Source: an uncultured Verrucomicrobia subdivision 3 bacterium
Lineage (GTDB): Bacteria > Verrucomicrobiota > Verrucomicrobiia > Limisphaerales > UBA11358
DNA length: 64,000 nt
Reading direction: 5' to 3'
Assembly (NCBI GenBank): GCA_903865745.1
Contig: CAIPKV010000078.1
Location: 12,649-76,648 of the forward strand
Of this stretch, positions 21,355-50,330 are shown piece after piece. A model generated the notes under the pieces. It saw nothing but the letters and a program-made list of their open reading frames with translations. It was not told where the DNA came from and made no database searches. Position numbers and translations under genes: made by a program. Position 1 is the first letter of the stretch, and the number at the start of each line of letters is the position of its first letter.

Positions 21355-21655
21355 CGCACCAGAAAATCATCCCCTCGTACGAGTAGATCATCTGCTCGCA
21401 CCAAATTATCATTTTCTCGTACGGTTGAAGCATTCTGCCATACGGCTGGGTGTTCCAACCGTATGGCTGGCTCGTCCAACCATACGGCTGACTCGTCCAA
21501 CCGTACGGCTGGCTCGTCCAACCGTACGGCTGGAACCTCCAGCCGTATGGCTGAAGACTCCAGCCGCACCAGTAAATCATTTATTGGTGCGGATAAATCG
21601 TCCAGCCGTACCAGTAAACCTTCCAGCCGTACGGTTTTTAGTCAAAAGCGCGTCC
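21355..21655. repeat. 21-bp-period palindromic array A (14 units) with terminal motif
   Basis: Units start at 21355+21n with no indels; consensus core CCAGCCGTACGGCTGG; ends in GTTTTTAGTCAAAAGCGCGTCC. Confidence 0.9.
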
Positions 21656-21745
21656 GAAGTGGCAAAAACCATCTCTTTTGCCGACGCCACCCCGACAAGT
21701 GTGTAAAAAGAGACACCTAGCGTCAGGTTGTCCCGTTGGGAGGAT

Positions 21746-21821
21746 GGTAGGGCGCGCAGTCCCTTGCGCGCCGGGGCGTGGGTTGCCACCGGACGGCGCG
21801 CATGGAGTGACGCGCCCTACC
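21746..21821. repeat. REP doublet (REPIN-like), GTAG type
   Basis: GGTAGGGCGCGCAGTCCCTTGCGCGCCG ... CGGCGCGCATGGAGTGACGCGCCCTACC, inverted pair. Confidence 0.8.
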
Positions 21822-21909
21822 GGTTGCCCGCCTCCGGATACCCGCTATTGGCCAGCACGCAGCGCTTTCTGCTTTGGCTTTGGGACGTGTCCCATTATCT
21901 TGCGCGGCT

Positions 21910-22923
21910 ATGTTTGTCCGTTTCACCCTGCTGTTGCTCGCGCTCGCGCTGTCTGCGCCCGCCAGTCACGCGGCTTTCATCAGGGGCCACAGCTATGTGC
22001 CGCTCGCCGAGTGGGCGGATGATAATAACTTCCGCATCGTCGCGCACTACGGCGATGAAATCACCCTGACCAACCGCTCGGCGCGGCTGGTCTTCGCCAA
22101 GGATTCGCATACGGCCCAGATCAATGGCGTGAACGTGGCGCTGTCGTTCCCGGTGTCGGCGGATAAGGGTCAGTTCGCCATCGCCCAAATGGATTTGACC
22201 CGCACCATCGAGCCGCTCATCTATCCGCCCAAGTTTGCGGGCCGGAAGCTTACCACCATCGTGCTCGACCCCGGTCACGGCGGGAAGGACCCGGGCAACC
22301 GCGTGGCCGGGCGCAGCGAAAAGAACGCGACGCTGGCGCTGGCCAATGCGGTGCGCGACCAATTGGTGGACGCGGGCTTCCGGGTCATCTTCACGCGCAA
22401 GTCGGATAAGTTCGTGGAACTGCCGGTGCGACCGGACATCGCCAACCGCGCGCGCGCGGACCTCTTCGTGAGCCTGCACTTCAATGCGACCACGTCGGGC
22501 AAGGCGGAAGTGAGCGGGCCGGAGACGTATTGCATCACGCCGGTGGGCGCGGCGTCGTCCAATGCGCAAGGCGAAGGCGCGAACTACGGCGCGACCACGG
22601 CGAACCTCTCGGAGAAGCCGAGCCTGCTGCTGGCGTATTCCGTGCAGCGCGCGCTGGTGAAGAATCTGGGCGTGGAGGATCGCAGTGTGCGGCGCGCGCG
22701 CTTCGCGGTGTTGCGCGATGCGGAGATGCCCGCCATCCTGATCGAGAGCGGTTACATGACGCATCCGGTGGAGGGCCGGAAGATTTTCGACGCGGCCTAC
22801 CAGCGGCAACTGGCGGCGGCCATCGTGAAGGGGATCATGAATTATCAAAGGCTGACCGCGCCGGCGGAGGCGCCCTTTACGAACAGCACGCCGACCAGCA
22901 TTCACAAACGAAAGAAATCATGA
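21910..22923 (+). CDS. N-acetylmuramoyl-L-alanine amidase (Amidase_3)
   Basis: Signal peptide; IVLDPGHGGKDPG, FVSLHFN and AILIESGY motifs. Confidence 0.92.
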   Translation: MFVRFTLLLLALALSAPASHAAFIRGHSYVPLAEWADDNNFRIVAHYGDEITLTNRSARLVFAKDSHTAQINGVNVALSFPVSADKGQFAIAQMDLTRTIEPLIYPPKFAGRKLTTIVLDPGHGGKDPGNRVAGRSEKNATLALANAVRDQLVDAGFRVIFTRKSDKFVELPVRPDIANRARADLFVSLHFNATTSGKAEVSGPETYCITPVGAASSNAQGEGANYGATTANLSEKPSLLLAYSVQRALVKNLGVEDRSVRRARFAVLRDAEMPAILIESGYMTHPVEGRKIFDAAYQRQLAAAIVKGIMNYQRLTAPAEAPFTNSTPTSIHKRKKS

Positions 22924-47890: not shown

Positions 47891-48313
47891 ATGGCCGAAT
47901 TGTTCCGCCACGCGCACCGCGTGACCTACGCCGAATGCACCGTCGGCAACCACATCTACCACGCGCGCTACCTCGACCTGCTCGAGGCGGCGCGCGGCGA
48001 ATTCATGCGCGCCCTCGGCACGCCGGTGCTGACGTTGCAGGACGCCGACTATATTTTCCCCGTCATCGAGGCGCGGCTGCGCTACAAATTTCCCGCGCGC
48101 TACGATGACGCGCTGACCATCGAAGTCTGGCTGACGCTCGTCGAGCGGGTGCGCCTGAACTTCGGCCATCGCATTGTGAACCAGAACGGCCAGCTAATTC
48201 TCGAGGCAGAAACCTTTCATTGCTGCACCAGCCGCGATGAAAAGCCGAAGCGCCTGCCGCCGGAACTCGTGGAAAAGCTGAAGCCGTACCTAAGTCCGAC
48301 AACTTTGTTCTAG
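47891..48313 (+). CDS. Acyl-CoA thioesterase (YbgC/FadM hot-dog fold)
   Basis: RVTYAECTVGNHIYHARYLDLLEAAR and PARYDD motifs. Confidence 0.85.
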   Translation: MAELFRHAHRVTYAECTVGNHIYHARYLDLLEAARGEFMRALGTPVLTLQDADYIFPVIEARLRYKFPARYDDALTIEVWLTLVERVRLNFGHRIVNQNGQLILEAETFHCCTSRDEKPKRLPPELVEKLKPYLSPTTLF

Positions 48314-48424
48314 CCAACGAGAATCGGCGGACGCAGGGAGAACTTATTCACCGAGGCTAAGCGGCTGATTTTTCATTCAACCTTGCGCAATTCGCTTTTC
48401 TTTGCTCAAATTCAGCGGCGCGCG

Positions 48425-49909
48425 ATGCAAAACCAACTTCAACCTTACCCCAAACATTACTGCGGCGTCTTTGGCGTCTTTGGCCATCCCAATGCCGCCG
48501 AGCTGGCCTACTTCGGCCTCTACGCCCTGCAACATCGCGGCCAGGAAAGCGCGGGCATTGTCACTTGCAACGGCGGGAAATTCTATAAGCACCACGGCAT
48601 GGGCCTCGTGCCCCAGATCTTTAACGACCCCAAGATTCTCCACGAACTCGTCGGCGACCGCGCCATCGGCCACACGCGCTATTCCACCACCGGTTCGTCC
48701 AATCTCCGCAACGCCCAGCCGCTCACCGTCGACTGCGCGCGCGGCCAGATCGCCGTCGCGCACAACGGCAACCTGACCAACGCCGCCGTCCTCCGCGACG
48801 AGCTCGAATCCCGCGGCCTCGTCTTCCAGACCTCGGTGGATAGCGAAATCATTATCATGATGCTCGCACAGCCCGAATTGGGCGGCGTCGCCAACTCGCT
48901 CGTGCAGACCTTGCGCCGCATCGAAGGCGCCTATTCCCTCGTCATCATGACGGAGAAAGAGCTCATCGGCGCGCGCGATCCGCATGGCTTCCGCCCGCTC
49001 TCCATTGGCAAGACGGCCGAGGGCGCCTATGTGCTGTCCAGCGAGACCACGGCCTTCGACCTTATCCATGCGCGCTTTATCCGCGACGTTGAGCCGGGCG
49101 AAATTGTCATCATCAACGAGAAAGGTCTGACCAGCATCCAAGCCTGGCCGGAACATCAGAAGCGCGCGTTCTGCGTCTTCGAATACGTTTATTTCGCGCG
49201 GCCCGACAGCGTCCTCAACGGCCACAGCGTTTACGATGTCCGCAAAGAGATGGGCCGCCAGCTCGCCCGCGAGCACAACGTCAAGGCCGACCTCGTCATC
49301 CCCGTCCCCGACAGCGGCGTGTGCGCCGCGATGGGTTACTCCGAAGAGTCCGGCATTCCCTACGAGATGGCATTCATCCGCAACCATTACGTCGGGCGCA
49401 GCTTCCTCCAGCCGACGCAGCTCATTCGCGACTTCAACGTCCGCGTGAAGCTGAATCTCATCGAGTCCCTCGTCAAAGACAAGAGCGTCATCATCGTGGA
49501 CGATTCCATTGTGCGCGGGACCACCTGCCGTTCCCGCGTGAAGACCCTCAAGGAAGCCGGCGCGCGCGCGGTGCACGTGGCGGTGAGCTGCCCCCCGCAC
49601 CAATTCCCCTGCGTGTACGGCATAGATTTTCCCGATCGCAGCAAACTCATGGCCGCGAACAACACGGTGGATGAGATTCGCAAATATCTGAACGCCGACT
49701 CCCTGCATTATCTCTCGCAAGCCGGGATGGTGGCTGCCACCGGTCAGGCGAAGGAAGCGTTCTGCATGGCCTGTTACGATGGCAAATATCCGGTGCCCTA
49801 CGATCCGCTGCTGGACAAGCACATCATCGAGCGCCGCCGCAAGCTGACGCAGACCCTCGGCGAAGCCGCCGCGAAGGAAGACGCCCAAGGCAAGCTGCTG
49901 AAAGTCTGA
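48425..49909 (+). CDS. purF: Amidophosphoribosyltransferase
   Basis: Propeptide then CGVFG; LQHRGQES, GHTRYST and VDDSIVRGTT; Fe-S cysteines. Confidence 0.97.
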   Translation: MQNQLQPYPKHYCGVFGVFGHPNAAELAYFGLYALQHRGQESAGIVTCNGGKFYKHHGMGLVPQIFNDPKILHELVGDRAIGHTRYSTTGSSNLRNAQPLTVDCARGQIAVAHNGNLTNAAVLRDELESRGLVFQTSVDSEIIIMMLAQPELGGVANSLVQTLRRIEGAYSLVIMTEKELIGARDPHGFRPLSIGKTAEGAYVLSSETTAFDLIHARFIRDVEPGEIVIINEKGLTSIQAWPEHQKRAFCVFEYVYFARPDSVLNGHSVYDVRKEMGRQLAREHNVKADLVIPVPDSGVCAAMGYSEESGIPYEMAFIRNHYVGRSFLQPTQLIRDFNVRVKLNLIESLVKDKSVIIVDDSIVRGTTCRSRVKTLKEAGARAVHVAVSCPPHQFPCVYGIDFPDRSKLMAANNTVDEIRKYLNADSLHYLSQAGMVAATGQAKEAFCMACYDGKYPVPYDPLLDKHIIERRRKLTQTLGEAAAKEDAQGKLLKV

Positions 49910-49910
49910 G

Positions 49911-50330
49911 CTCCCGCCGTCCGTCCGCAATCCCCGGTGACCCATTCTGAGGCTCCCGCCCTCAATTCCTAACCTCCCGCACCGAGTGCGGGGACCCCCG
50001 CGTTCCGTCCCGATGCTCCCGCAGTCAGTGCGGGGACTCCCGCACGGATTCCGGGAGCTCCCGCAGCAAGTCCGGGAACTCCCGCATCCGGTCCGGGGGT
50101 TCCCGCATCCGGTCCGGGGGTTCCCGCAGCTAGTCCCGATGCTCCCGCACGGCGTGCGGGGACACCGCCATTCAGTCCCGGTGTGCCGCGACGTGGTCGC
50201 GGTGTGCCGCCACCAGTTCGCGGCGTGCCGCCATGCGTTCGCGGTGCACCGGCACGGCGTCGCGGCATGCCGCCATGCGTTCGCGGCGTGCCGCCACCGA
50301 GTCCCGTTGTGCCGCCACGGCGTCGCGGCG
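49911..50330. repeat. 21-bp-period palindromic array D (20 units, two blocks)
   Basis: CTCCCGC-like anchors at 49911+21n up to 50142, then TGCCGC-like anchors in the same phase up to 50310; cores approximately TGCGGGAGCTCCCGCA and TCGCGGCATGCCGCSA. Confidence 0.9.

What the first reader, a model, noticed from the sequence alone, without database searches (positions are those of the whole stretch)
21355..50330. Dispersed family of 21-bp-phased palindromic arrays with unrelated cores but shared architecture (candidate undescribed system)
Seen in sequence: four intergenic arrays, A 21355-21648 (14 units), B ~32092-32452 (~17), C 44315-~44645 (14-16) and D 49911-50330 (20). Each starts within ~50 bp of a stop codon and keeps an exact 21-bp period with no indels despite heavy substitution. 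A, C and D are a 16-bp palindrome plus a 5-bp spacer with different cores (CCAGCCGTACGGCTGG; ATTTGCACGTGCAAAT; TGCGGGAGCTCCCGCA then TCGCGGCATGCCGCSA). They are not CRISPR (no unique spacers, no cas genes) and are unlike ordinary VNTRs because the units are diverged while the phase is fixed. Established: 21 bp is two B-DNA turns and also 7 codons. Inference: they could be same-face arrays of dimeric-protein binding sites (operator, nucleoid or centromere-like), multi-hairpin RNAs, heptad micro-proteins, or relics of a non-autonomous element that builds new repeat cores.
Basis: partly seen in the sequence, partly recalled or inferred. Interest (0 to 1): 0.85.

Follow-up and report, generated by a model that had tools for sequence, protein, structure and literature searches.

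The report
Genome-wide 21-bp period-locked repeat arrays
The four arrays are real members of a family of about 200 non-coding tandem repeats in one uncultured lake bacterium that share only an exact 21-base unit (two turns of the DNA helix), a pattern that no described repeat class explains.

Summary
All four arrays are real. Independent contigs of two runs reproduce B, C and D without a difference. They are a sample of a genome-wide phenomenon. In the 3.63-Mb genome, 273 arrays have period 21, against 2-33 at seven control periods. They fall into about 160 unrelated core clusters and sit in roughly 15% of all sizeable intergenic regions, whatever the gene orientation.

They are not coding: 26 of 136 long arrays have stops in all six frames, and there is no codon periodicity. 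They show no RNA-strand signature (G-T 708 vs A-C 673). They are not CRISPR.

Only 105 of 270 arrays are palindromic, so the shared trait is the period, not the palindrome.

A, B, C and D are missing at the orthologous sites of 26-29 relatives. C and D sit where relatives have abutting genes. D has an orthologue, with differently homogenised sub-arrays, in one metagenome contig.

About 1.5 Mb sampled from 25 relatives holds 4 such arrays where about 96 would be expected.

My best reading is DNA-level minisatellites evolving in phase, with the unit length held at two helical turns. The function is unproven.

Earlier notes of this scan reported the same pattern in other windows of this genome and in Bacteroidota.

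The parts
21355..21648 (.). Array A. 14 units of 21 bp. Consensus CCAACCGTACGGCTGAATCAT, i.e. two 8-nt complementary arms around ATCAT.
   Evidence: Absent from 0 of 26 relatives' ABC-F loci. The consensus is 18 of 21 identical to an array upstream of a family-4 gene in G065 (compared by eye).
32092..32452 (.). Array B. About 17 units, about 13 recognisable. A direct, non-palindromic repeat with the conserved block CGTCGCAGGT. It ends 45 bp upstream of an ArsR-type HTH gene.
   Evidence: It is one of 4 loci in the genome with this core (C32, C71, C78, C79), and the neighbours are unrelated. Absent from 0 of 28 relatives' loci.
44315..44645 (.). Array C. About 16 units. Core ATTTGCACGTGCAAAT plus a 5-bp spacer. 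Individual units carry compensated arm changes.
   Evidence: There are 10 compensated pairs against 4.3 in shuffles. The array lies in a 549-bp spacer where G010 has lon and the LolA-like gene overlapping by 4 nt. Absent from 0 of 29 relatives' lon loci.
49911..50163 (.). Array D, first sub-array. About 12 units of type CTCCCGCA-n5-TSCGGGRG. It starts at the purF stop codon.
   Evidence: Orthologous units TCCGGGAGCTCCCGCA are found in metagenome locus L202.
50164..50330 (.). Array D, second sub-array. 8 units of type GTGCCGCCA-n4-GTCGCGGC, in phase with the first sub-array.
   Evidence: The counterpart in L202 is TGCAGTAGC-n3-GTCCCGGCG (13 of 18 alike by eye, same phase). The right flank is orthologous.
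1..60 (.). End of a further 21-bp array (contig C78:12487-12708) that runs off the left edge of the window.
   Evidence: The array caller and TRF were run on the whole contig.
19432..21333 (+). ABC-F ATPase gene, upstream of A.
   Evidence: Pfam ABC_tran x2, ABC_tran_Xtn, ABC_tran_CTD.
21874..22923 (+). N-acetylmuramoyl-L-alanine amidase gene, downstream of A.
   Evidence: Pfam Amidase_3, E = 6e-49.
32489..32812 (+). ArsR-type winged-helix gene (107 aa), directly downstream of B. It belongs to a 5-member family, and 4 members have a 21-bp array upstream.
   Evidence: Pfam HTH_20/HTH_5.
43366..44145 (-). LolA-like gene, downstream of C on the minus strand.
   Evidence: Pfam LolA_like.
44695..47106 (-). 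lon protease gene. Its stop codon lies 50 bp from C.
   Evidence: Pfam Lon_C, LON_substr_bdg, AAA.
48383..49909 (+). purF-type amidophosphoribosyltransferase gene. D starts at its stop codon.
   Evidence: Pfam GATase_7, Pribosyltran.
50542..51219 (+). deoC-type aldolase gene, downstream of D.
   Evidence: Pfam DeoC.

Best explanation
A, B, C and D are non-coding, double-strand-DNA minisatellites of one genome-wide, period-locked family.

How an array arises and changes. A seed enters an intergenic site, even a junction where genes previously abutted. It then gains and loses whole 21-bp units by slipped or unequal pairing. The phase is therefore inherited, while the core sequence drifts and is homogenised block by block (concerted evolution). 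Arm symmetry is kept or regenerated in about a third of arrays.

Why 21 bp. The most likely reason is that 21 bp is the smallest whole number of bases equal to two helical turns. Every unit then faces the same side, and small bends or bound proteins add up coherently. The array works, where it works at all, as an orientation-independent architectural or docking tract and not through its sequence.

Where it came from. In the genus, the ancestral home of such arrays is the upstream region of two small gene families. In this species they have spread to about 15% of sizeable intergenic regions.

Shown: the family exists, it acts at the DNA level, and it is inserted, turns over in phase and is amplified in this lineage. 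Inferred: the two-turn constraint and any host function.
For: Period lock:
- 290 of 712 TRF rows have period 21, and a further 221 have period 42, 63 or 84.
- 273 arrays at lag 21, against 2-33 at lags 18, 19, 20, 23, 24, 27 and 30.
- In 441 kb of related metagenome contigs there are 11 calls at lag 21 and 0 at five other lags.

Unrelated cores: 161 clusters at 16 or more of 21 matches. Pair similarity exceeds shuffles only from 14 of 21 upward.

DNA level, no orientation:
- G-T 708 vs A-C 673, and 5 of 92 arrays are asymmetric at p < 0.05.
- GC and AT skew relative to flanking genes are -0.005 and 0.006, p = 0.77, n = 78.
- Arrays occupy 16.2%, 13.4% and 15.5% of divergent, tandem and convergent intergenic regions.

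Insertion:
- purF and deoC, and lon and the LolA-like gene, abut or overlap in G010.
- 0 of 29, 29, 26 and 28 relatives' loci carry D, C, A and B.

In-phase turnover:
- D and its orthologue in L202 share the right flank and one unit type, but have differently homogenised sub-arrays and different unit numbers.
- The C16, C13, C3 and C29 loci have 94-100% identical flanks, shared terminal units, and interiors that are 13 of 21 alike in register.

Symmetry:
- 105 of 270 arrays are palindromic against 23 expected.
- Watson-Crick pairs number 4812 against 4674 +/- 25 in shuffles. Compensated pairs number 356 against 307.5 +/- 12.7.
- One paralogue pair has 5 compensated arm changes, while 4-fold sites differ at 22 of 121.

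Conserved association: 24 of 30 family-4 loci have an upstream array (21 of 27 outside G000). All have period 21 and all cores differ.

Two-turn physics, from a wedge model with parameters recalled from memory:
- End-to-end/contour ratio is 0.866 for arrays. It is 0.943 for array-free intergenic DNA, 0.938 and 0.905 for the same units cut to 20 bp or lengthened to 22 bp, and 0.908 with columns permuted.
- Paired Wilcoxon p = 2e-4.
Against: Nothing shows a host function for A, C or D.
- They were inserted recently on the genus scale.
- Arrays are spread evenly over all intergenic types, which also fits junk.
- Column conservation is flat: 0.64 in the 5-nt centre and 0.76 in the arms. Sequence-specific binding sites would not look like that.
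- 167 of 203 arrays have 0.65-0.75 identity to their own consensus and none reaches 0.9. That fits a past burst followed by decay as well as it fits a steady state.

The apparent lack of indels is weaker than it looks. Arrays show at most 60 phase breaks per 14,546 differences. Paralogous flanks show only 2 gap events per 89 substitutions, and my caller cuts arrays at indels. One-base slips do occur (C32 and C79).

The curvature result rests on recalled parameters and the effect over permuted units is small: the real array is more curved than 64% of permutations.

A minor period-22 class exists (12 calls).

No binding protein is identified and no expression data exist.
Confidence: 0.45

Rival explanations
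1. The arrays are footprints of a length-measuring repeat-writing process with no host function. A lineage-specific enzyme or repair pathway duplicates exactly 21 bp, for example by staggered cuts two turns apart followed by fill-in. The arrays are its selfish or neutral by-product, now decaying.
For: - Burst in one species: the strict caller finds 225 arrays in G000 (6.2 per 100 kb). About 1.55 Mb sampled from 25 relatives holds 4 convincing non-coding arrays.
- Insertion into operon-like junctions.
- Equal use of all intergenic types.
- A flat conservation profile and a narrow identity distribution with no young array.
- Unchecked earlier notes of this scan report the same 21-bp lock in Bacteroidota.
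Against: - No candidate enzyme was found. RVT_1 gives 0 hits and Piwi 0 hits. The single Cas1 belongs to an ordinary type II CRISPR locus. The two Y1 transposase genes carry only local repeats.
- If writing were ongoing, near-perfect arrays should exist, and none has identity of 0.9 or more.
- Arrays upstream of family-4 genes are kept across species.
- D's orthologue shows continuing homogenisation rather than pure decay.
Confidence: 0.22
2. Each array is a row of operator or centromere-like sites for its own sequence-specific dimeric DNA-binding protein, iteron-like. Cores differ because the proteins differ.
For: - Palindromic units spaced two turns apart.
- B and three other arrays lie directly upstream of paralogous ArsR-type HTH genes, each with a different core.
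- The A-type core recurs in arrays of three other species.
- A shared RTSAY centre occurs in 23 of 94 palindromic arrays against about 0.7 expected.
Against: - About 160 unrelated cores would need about as many proteins.
- A, C and D have no adjacent regulator gene.
- The B core occurs at three other loci without an ArsR-type gene.
- Unit conservation is low and flat at 0.64-0.76.
- Compensated arm changes within one array do not suit one fixed protein specificity.
- 165 of 270 arrays are not palindromic.
Confidence: 0.12
3. The arrays are multi-hairpin RNA elements in 3' or intercistronic regions, REP/BIME-like mRNA stabilisers or terminators.
For: - In the window all four follow a stop codon within 50 bp.
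- C and D were inserted between genes that are adjacent and co-directional in relatives, so they are probably transcribed.
- A, C and D fold far better than shuffles, with z from -2.8 to -13.0.
- For C, the better-folding strand is the sense strand of lon.
Against: - Genome-wide there is no G-U over A-C excess (708 vs 673), and per-array asymmetry is at the chance level.
- There is no composition skew relative to gene direction and no bias towards stops.
- 27 array-bearing regions are convergent and 46 are divergent.
- For A, the better-folding strand is antisense to both neighbours.
- B barely folds.
- 165 of 270 arrays lack a palindrome.
- No Rfam family matches.
Confidence: 0.08
4. The arrays encode small proteins with heptad (7-residue) repeats.
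For: 21 bp is 7 codons, and several frames are open through A, C and D.
Against: - 26 of 136 arrays with 8 or more units have stops in all six frames, and 38 have only one open frame.
- Period-3 power in column variability is 0.069 against 0.101 in shuffles.
- The codon-usage gene caller does not pick them in the window.
Confidence: 0.01

Closest known systems
Bacterial minisatellites, VNTRs and prokaryotic 'satellites' (Subirana & Messeguer 2019, PMC6749651; abstract and passages read)
   Same: Head-to-tail, non-coding, intergenic units of 10-100 bp. They turn over by unit gain and loss, and cores are species-specific.
   Different: That survey found more than 4 satellites per Mb in only 18 bacterial species. 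It found non-coding dispersed families only in Leptospira interrogans and one archaeon, and it reports no preferred non-coding period. This genome has 62-75 arrays per Mb, all with one period and with unrelated cores. The paper's additional files, which list repeat lengths, could not be seen.
BrickBuilt minisatellite-bearing MITE of Porphyromonas gingivalis (PMC4596501; abstract read)
   Same: An intergenic minisatellite without spacers, with a unit length close to two turns (23 nt), in multiple copies per genome and species-restricted.
   Different: BrickBuilt has one shared 23-nt unit, plus leader and tail subunits with inverted-repeat ends, and 19 copies. This genome has about 160 core clusters. 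There is no common leader or tail; shared flanks occur only among paralogous loci. The unit is exactly 21 bp.
REP/BIME elements and their RAYT transposases (PMC3333891, PMC2817692; search listing and abstracts only)
   Same: Short intergenic palindromes in high copy number that may be clustered at regular spacing. A DNA-level architectural role has been proposed for them.
   Different: REPs of one genome share a consensus, alternate in orientation and have variable linkers. The arrays here are strictly head-to-tail at 21 bp with private cores. The two Y1 transposase genes of the genome are flanked by repeats found nowhere else.
Iterons and plasmid centromere arrays (recalled from memory, no call)
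   Same: Direct repeats phased about two helical turns apart that dock a protein on one face. Some carry an inner palindrome.
   Different: Iterons are well conserved and lie next to their Rep or Par gene. These units are only 64-76% conserved per column. A, C and D have no cognate gene. The arrays are chromosomal and number in the hundreds.
CRISPR arrays
   Same: Regularly spaced, partly palindromic repeats.
   Different: There are no spacers. The genome's true CRISPR has 36-nt repeats, a 66-bp period, about 31 units and adjacent Cas1, Cas2 and a 1073-aa protein. It lies on another contig and looks quite different.

Membership tests
CRISPR array | Repeats separated by unique spacers of similar length | tested here: not met
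   Units abut without spacers. TRF gives a period of 21.
CRISPR array | Adjacent cas genes | tested here: not met
   The only Cas1 of the genome is on contig C59, beside a 66-bp-period array. None of the genes next to the arrays in the window is a cas gene.
REP/BIME | One palindromic consensus shared by the copies of a genome | tested here: not met
   161 core clusters. Pair similarity is at the level of shuffles below 14 of 21.
REP/BIME | A Y1 (RAYT) transposase gene flanked by the same repeats | tested here: not met
   There are two Y1_Tnp genes. Their flanking inverted repeats have 2 copies each, both local.
Minisatellite-bearing MITE (BrickBuilt type) | Common leader and tail with terminal inverted repeats around the array | tested here: not met
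   All-against-all BLAST of 200-bp flanks of 210 loci finds shared flanks only in a few paralogous groups. The four B-core loci share no flank.
Minisatellite-bearing MITE (BrickBuilt type) | The same repeat unit in all copies | tested here: not met
Iteron or centromere-like protein-docking array | Direct repeats phased at about two helical turns | tested here: met
Iteron or centromere-like protein-docking array | Cognate DNA-binding protein gene next to the array | tested here: inconclusive
   B has an ArsR-type HTH gene 45 bp downstream, and 4 of 5 paralogues have an array. A, C and D have none. Binding was not tested.
Iteron or centromere-like protein-docking array | Strongly conserved recognition positions within units | tested here: not met
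   Mean column conservation is 0.64-0.76, nearly flat.
Generic VNTR or minisatellite | Head-to-tail units of 10-100 bp in non-coding DNA | tested here: met
Generic VNTR or minisatellite | Unit-number variation between strains or species | tested here: inconclusive
   There is no difference between runs X1 and X4, which come from the same study. D has 20 units here and about 14 in L202, which is another species-level lineage.
Coding heptad repeat | An open frame through the array and 3-base periodicity of variation | tested here: not met

The most novel reading that the evidence does not exclude
A dedicated process that measures two helical turns writes and rewrites tandem 21-bp units into intergenic DNA. 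It can be switched on in single lineages, as in this species. According to unchecked notes of this scan it also occurs in uncultured Bacteroidota. The arrays would then be the visible product of an undescribed genome-shaping machine, and not ordinary slippage products.
Probability: 0.2. Interest if true: 0.9.

Novelty: new variant of a known kind. Interest (0 to 1): 0.72.

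Why it matters
Bacterial genomes are thought to carry few non-coding satellites, with no preferred unit length. This genome devotes 1.4% of its DNA (52 kb) to hundreds of arrays whose only common property is a unit of exactly two helical turns. 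These arrays have been inserted even between genes that abut in relatives.

If the period is selected, this would be a sequence-independent, shape-based class of cis element in bacteria. If the period is written by a machine, that machine is unknown.

Either way the arrays are easy to detect by lag-21 autocorrelation. That makes two questions directly testable: what fixes the length, and which gene tracks array richness. The arrays also break short-read assemblies: 14 of 210 array loci lie at contig ends. And they create spurious ORFs: 72 of 273 arrays were covered by such calls.

Tried and rejected
- Expression: no RNA holder is listed among the public runs, so nothing can be said about transcription.
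- Exact 26-mer from the D right junction in metagenome contigs: 0 matches. A degenerate purF pattern then gave 76 loci.
- Phase-slip detector: it found 2 events in about 2242 units, but it is too strict for units that are only 55-65% alike. One-base slips visible by eye in C32 and C79 were missed. I do not use this count.
- Indel deficit: arrays show at most 60 breaks per 14,546 differences, and flanks show 2 per 89. The flank sample is too small and the caller is biased, so this is suggestive only.
- Shared flanks as evidence of a MITE: mostly paralogous gene neighbourhoods.
- The 26-bp motif ACCGCGAAATACGCGAAATACGCGAA has 43 copies with up to 4 mismatches. About 20 lie within 250 bp of an array, often as inverted pairs. 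It is a separate repeat and is not found at the Y1 genes.
- Candidate enzymes: RVT_1 0 hits, Piwi 0 hits, Cas1 1 hit inside an ordinary type II CRISPR locus, Y1_Tnp 2 hits with private repeats.
- A 14-nt resemblance between array A and a repeat beside the C57 Y1 gene was not pursued and may be chance.
- k-mer enrichment over all cores is modest: ATCAT in 11 of 115 representatives against 3.5 expected.
- Rfam at gathering threshold: only a tRNA in the window.
- Literature: searches; abstract or passages. None describes a 21-bp period-locked class. Supplementary tables could not be opened.

Full report
**Observation.** Tandem Repeats Finder on the window returns 52 rows. The 15 rows with period 21, 42 or 63 all fall in the four stated places: 21441-21566, 32207-32377, 44335-44562 and 49955-50330. 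Cut into 21-mers, the sequence stays in register over 14, about 17, about 16 and 20 units. A and C are 16-bp palindromes plus 5 bp. D is two in-phase sub-arrays with imperfect arms. B is a direct repeat without a palindrome. Contigs of two public runs span B, C and D with no difference. Both runs are from one study and one may be the source sample. The flanking genes are named from Pfam: ABC-F, Amidase_3, an LRR protein, an ArsR-type HTH, LolA-like, Lon, a purF-type enzyme and DeoC.

**Genome-wide picture.** The window lies in a 3.63-Mb, 87-contig genome.
- Of 712 TRF rows, 290 have period 21, 132 have 42, 63 have 63 and 26 have 84. The next most common period is 7, with 46 rows.
- Windows of 105 bp that are at least 60% identical to themselves number 16,939 at lag 21. 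They number 0-801 at every lag that is not a multiple of 21 or 22.
- A simple caller finds 273 arrays at lag 21 (52.5 kb). It finds 12 at lag 22, and 27, 2, 6, 2, 33, 27 and 29 at lags 18, 19, 20, 23, 24, 27 and 30. A stricter setting gives 225.
- The consensus units form 161 clusters at 16 or more of 21 matches. Pairwise similarity exceeds shuffled units only from 14 of 21 upward.
- With a home-made codon-usage gene caller (2824 genes), arrays occupy 16.2% of divergent, 13.4% of co-directional and 15.5% of convergent intergenic regions that have at least 100 bp of other DNA. In co-directional regions they lie nearer the stop 41 times and nearer the start 36 times.

**What the arrays are not.**
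- Coding is excluded as a general reading. Among 136 arrays of 8 or more units, 26 have stops in all six frames. The period-3 share of column variability is 0.069, against 0.101 in shuffles.
- An RNA-structure reading predicts G-U pairs on the transcribed strand. In 94 palindromic arrays I count 4812 Watson-Crick, 708 G-T, 673 A-C and 1726 other pairs, and only 5 of 92 arrays are asymmetric at p < 0.05.
- Composition skew relative to flanking genes is nil (n = 78, p = 0.77).
- A, C and D do fold much better than shuffles on both strands (z from -2.8 to -13.0), as any palindrome would. B does not.
- No RNA run is listed, so expression is unknown.
- The genome's real CRISPR is an ordinary type II locus on another contig.

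**Anatomy.**
- Palindromy is enriched but not universal. 105 of 270 consensus units have 7 or more of 10 complementary pairs, against 23 expected.
- Such a unit can be read as two 8-nt arms around a 5-nt centre. That centre fits RTSAY in 23 of 94 arrays, where about 0.7 is expected.
- Arms covary. There are 356 compensated pairs against 307.5 +/- 12.7 in shuffles, and C is among the strongest cases. The shuffle control ignores relatedness of units, so this is moderate evidence.
- Column conservation is nearly flat, from 0.64 in the centre to 0.76 in the arms.
- Identity to the array's own consensus is 0.65-0.75 in 167 of 203 arrays and never 0.9 or more. Edge units are less conserved than central ones (0.59 vs 0.77).

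**History of the four arrays.**
- No relative carries them at the orthologous place. The counts are 0 of 29 purF loci (L014 has only a multi-period simple repeat), 0 of 29 lon loci, 0 of 26 ABC-F loci (one lag-21 call in L187 lies in coding DNA) and 0 of 28 loci of the gene after B.
- In G010, purF and deoC are separated by a few bases. There lon overlaps the LolA-like gene by 4 nt, where this genome has 549 bp. C and D therefore arrived by insertion into compact junctions.
- D is nevertheless older than this species. Metagenome locus L202 has an array between purF and deoC with the same right flank and the same TCCGGGAGCTCCCGCA unit. Its second sub-array is a different, locally homogenised variant, and it has about 14 units. 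This is concerted evolution in phase.
- The same pattern shows inside the genome. Loci C16, C13, C3 and C29 have 94-100% identical flanks and shared terminal units, but their interior cores are only 13 of 21 alike, in register.
- Loci C28 and C52 have downstream proteins that are 95% identical, and their 4-fold sites differ at 22 of 121. Yet their array arms differ at 5 of 8 positions, every change mirrored in the other arm.
- The B core occurs at three further loci with unrelated neighbours and no shared flank.
- The A consensus is 18 of 21 identical to an array in G065, and similar to arrays in G018 and G012 (compared by eye).

**Distribution.**
- Random stretches of 25 relatives total 1.55 Mb. 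They contain 4 convincing non-coding 21-bp arrays: two loci in G018, one in G064 and one in G039. The other calls were inspected and look coding or simple. At this genome's density about 96 would be expected. The high-contiguity genomes G011, G003 and G017 have none in 100 kb each.
- In 441 kb of metagenome contigs of the group there are 11 calls in 7 loci at lag 21 and none at five control lags.
- Within the genome, two small gene families stand out. In family 2 (weak Pfam fn3), 19 of 22 members have an array upstream. In family 4 (no Pfam hit), all 13 members do, each with a different core.
- Family 4 occurs in 16 of 61 genomes of the genus. 24 of 30 loci examined (21 of 27 outside this genome) have a 21-bp array on the upstream side, again with all cores different. 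These counts include one locus of the unpublished genome G070, which had no array.
The arrays are thus an old companion of these genes, and this species has spread them across its genome.

**Mechanism.** The period is the only invariant, which leaves three readings.
- (i) The period is inherited from seed arrays and kept by whole-unit turnover.
- (ii) It is held by selection, because 21 bp is the smallest integer equal to two helical turns.
- (iii) It is written by a ruler.
Reading (i) is shown for individual cases (D, C16/C3). By itself it does not explain why no other period exists here, nor why earlier, unchecked notes report the same number in Bacteroidota.

For (ii) I ran a wedge model with parameters recalled from memory. 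Arrays are predicted to be more curved (median end-to-end/contour 0.866) than three controls. Array-free intergenic DNA gives 0.943. The same units at 20 or 22 bp give 0.938 and 0.905. Column-permuted units give 0.908, with paired p = 2e-4. The effect over permuted units is small.

The scarcity of indels is suggestive but not established. For (iii) I found no enzyme.

I therefore rank them as follows: a two-turn architectural or docking constraint acting on in-phase minisatellites at 0.45, the ruler by-product at 0.22, private operator arrays at 0.12 and RNA hairpins at 0.08.

**Comparison with the known.** The arrays are minisatellites by form. They fail the defining features of CRISPR, REP/BIME and BrickBuilt-type MITEs. 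They meet only the phasing feature of iterons (see the membership table). A survey of prokaryotic satellites found more than 4 per Mb in only 18 bacterial species and named no preferred non-coding unit (PMC6749651, abstract and passages). Its supplementary lists could not be seen. Four full-text searches found no description.

**Limits.**
- The gene calls are my own crude ones.
- Array borders are approximate.
- Relatives were sampled, not scanned whole.
- The phylum name comes from earlier notes, not from my calls.
- No experiment or transcript data bear on function.

Noticed in passing
G000 contigs, e.g. C32:45064-45138, C13:66528-66602, C59:62776-62852: A separate 26-bp intergenic repeat, ACCGCGAAATACGCGAAATACGCGAA, has 43 copies with up to 4 mismatches. 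It often occurs as inverted pairs about 25 bp apart, and about 20 copies lie within 250 bp of a 21-bp array. It looks REP-like.
   Followed up: partly
G000 C59:45927-52680 (L276:5927-12680): An ordinary type II CRISPR-Cas locus. It has about 31 repeats of 36 nt at a 66-bp period, beside 115-aa (Cas2-sized; not tested) and 312-aa (Cas1) ORFs and a 1073-aa (Cas9-sized; not tested) ORF.
   Followed up: partly
G000 C16:16134-16472 and C57:61177-61518 (L198, L199): Two Y1_Tnp (IS200/RAYT-type) genes. Each is bracketed by 31-38-nt inverted repeats that occur nowhere else in the genome.
   Followed up: partly
L202:321-875: In the metagenome relative, a DUF4160/DUF2442 gene pair is inserted right after purF. 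About 40 bp of the purF 3' end is duplicated at the far side of the insert.
   Followed up: partly
G000, e.g. C10:11914-12211, C13:54432-54730, C33:9649-9957: There is a minor class of arrays with period 22 (12 calls). There are also heptamer arrays such as CTTTGGA, for example at C61:1-198.
   Followed up: no
G000 C28:10473-11180, C52:93068-93775 and 11 paralogues; C16:699-1349 and 21 paralogues: Two families of small proteins (about 205-240 aa, one with a weak fn3 match) almost always have a private 21-bp array 5-675 bp upstream. The family-4 arrays nearly abut the start codon, which leaves no room for a promoter between array and gene.
   Followed up: partly
window 44146-44314: The non-repeat part of the inserted lon/LolA-like spacer itself shows T-runs recurring every 20-21 bp. 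It may be a decayed older sub-array (seen by eye only).
   Followed up: no
G000 genome-wide: 72 of 273 arrays were covered by ORFs that my gene caller accepted, because periodic DNA stays open in several frames. Automatic annotation of such genomes will probably contain spurious small genes.
   Followed up: partly
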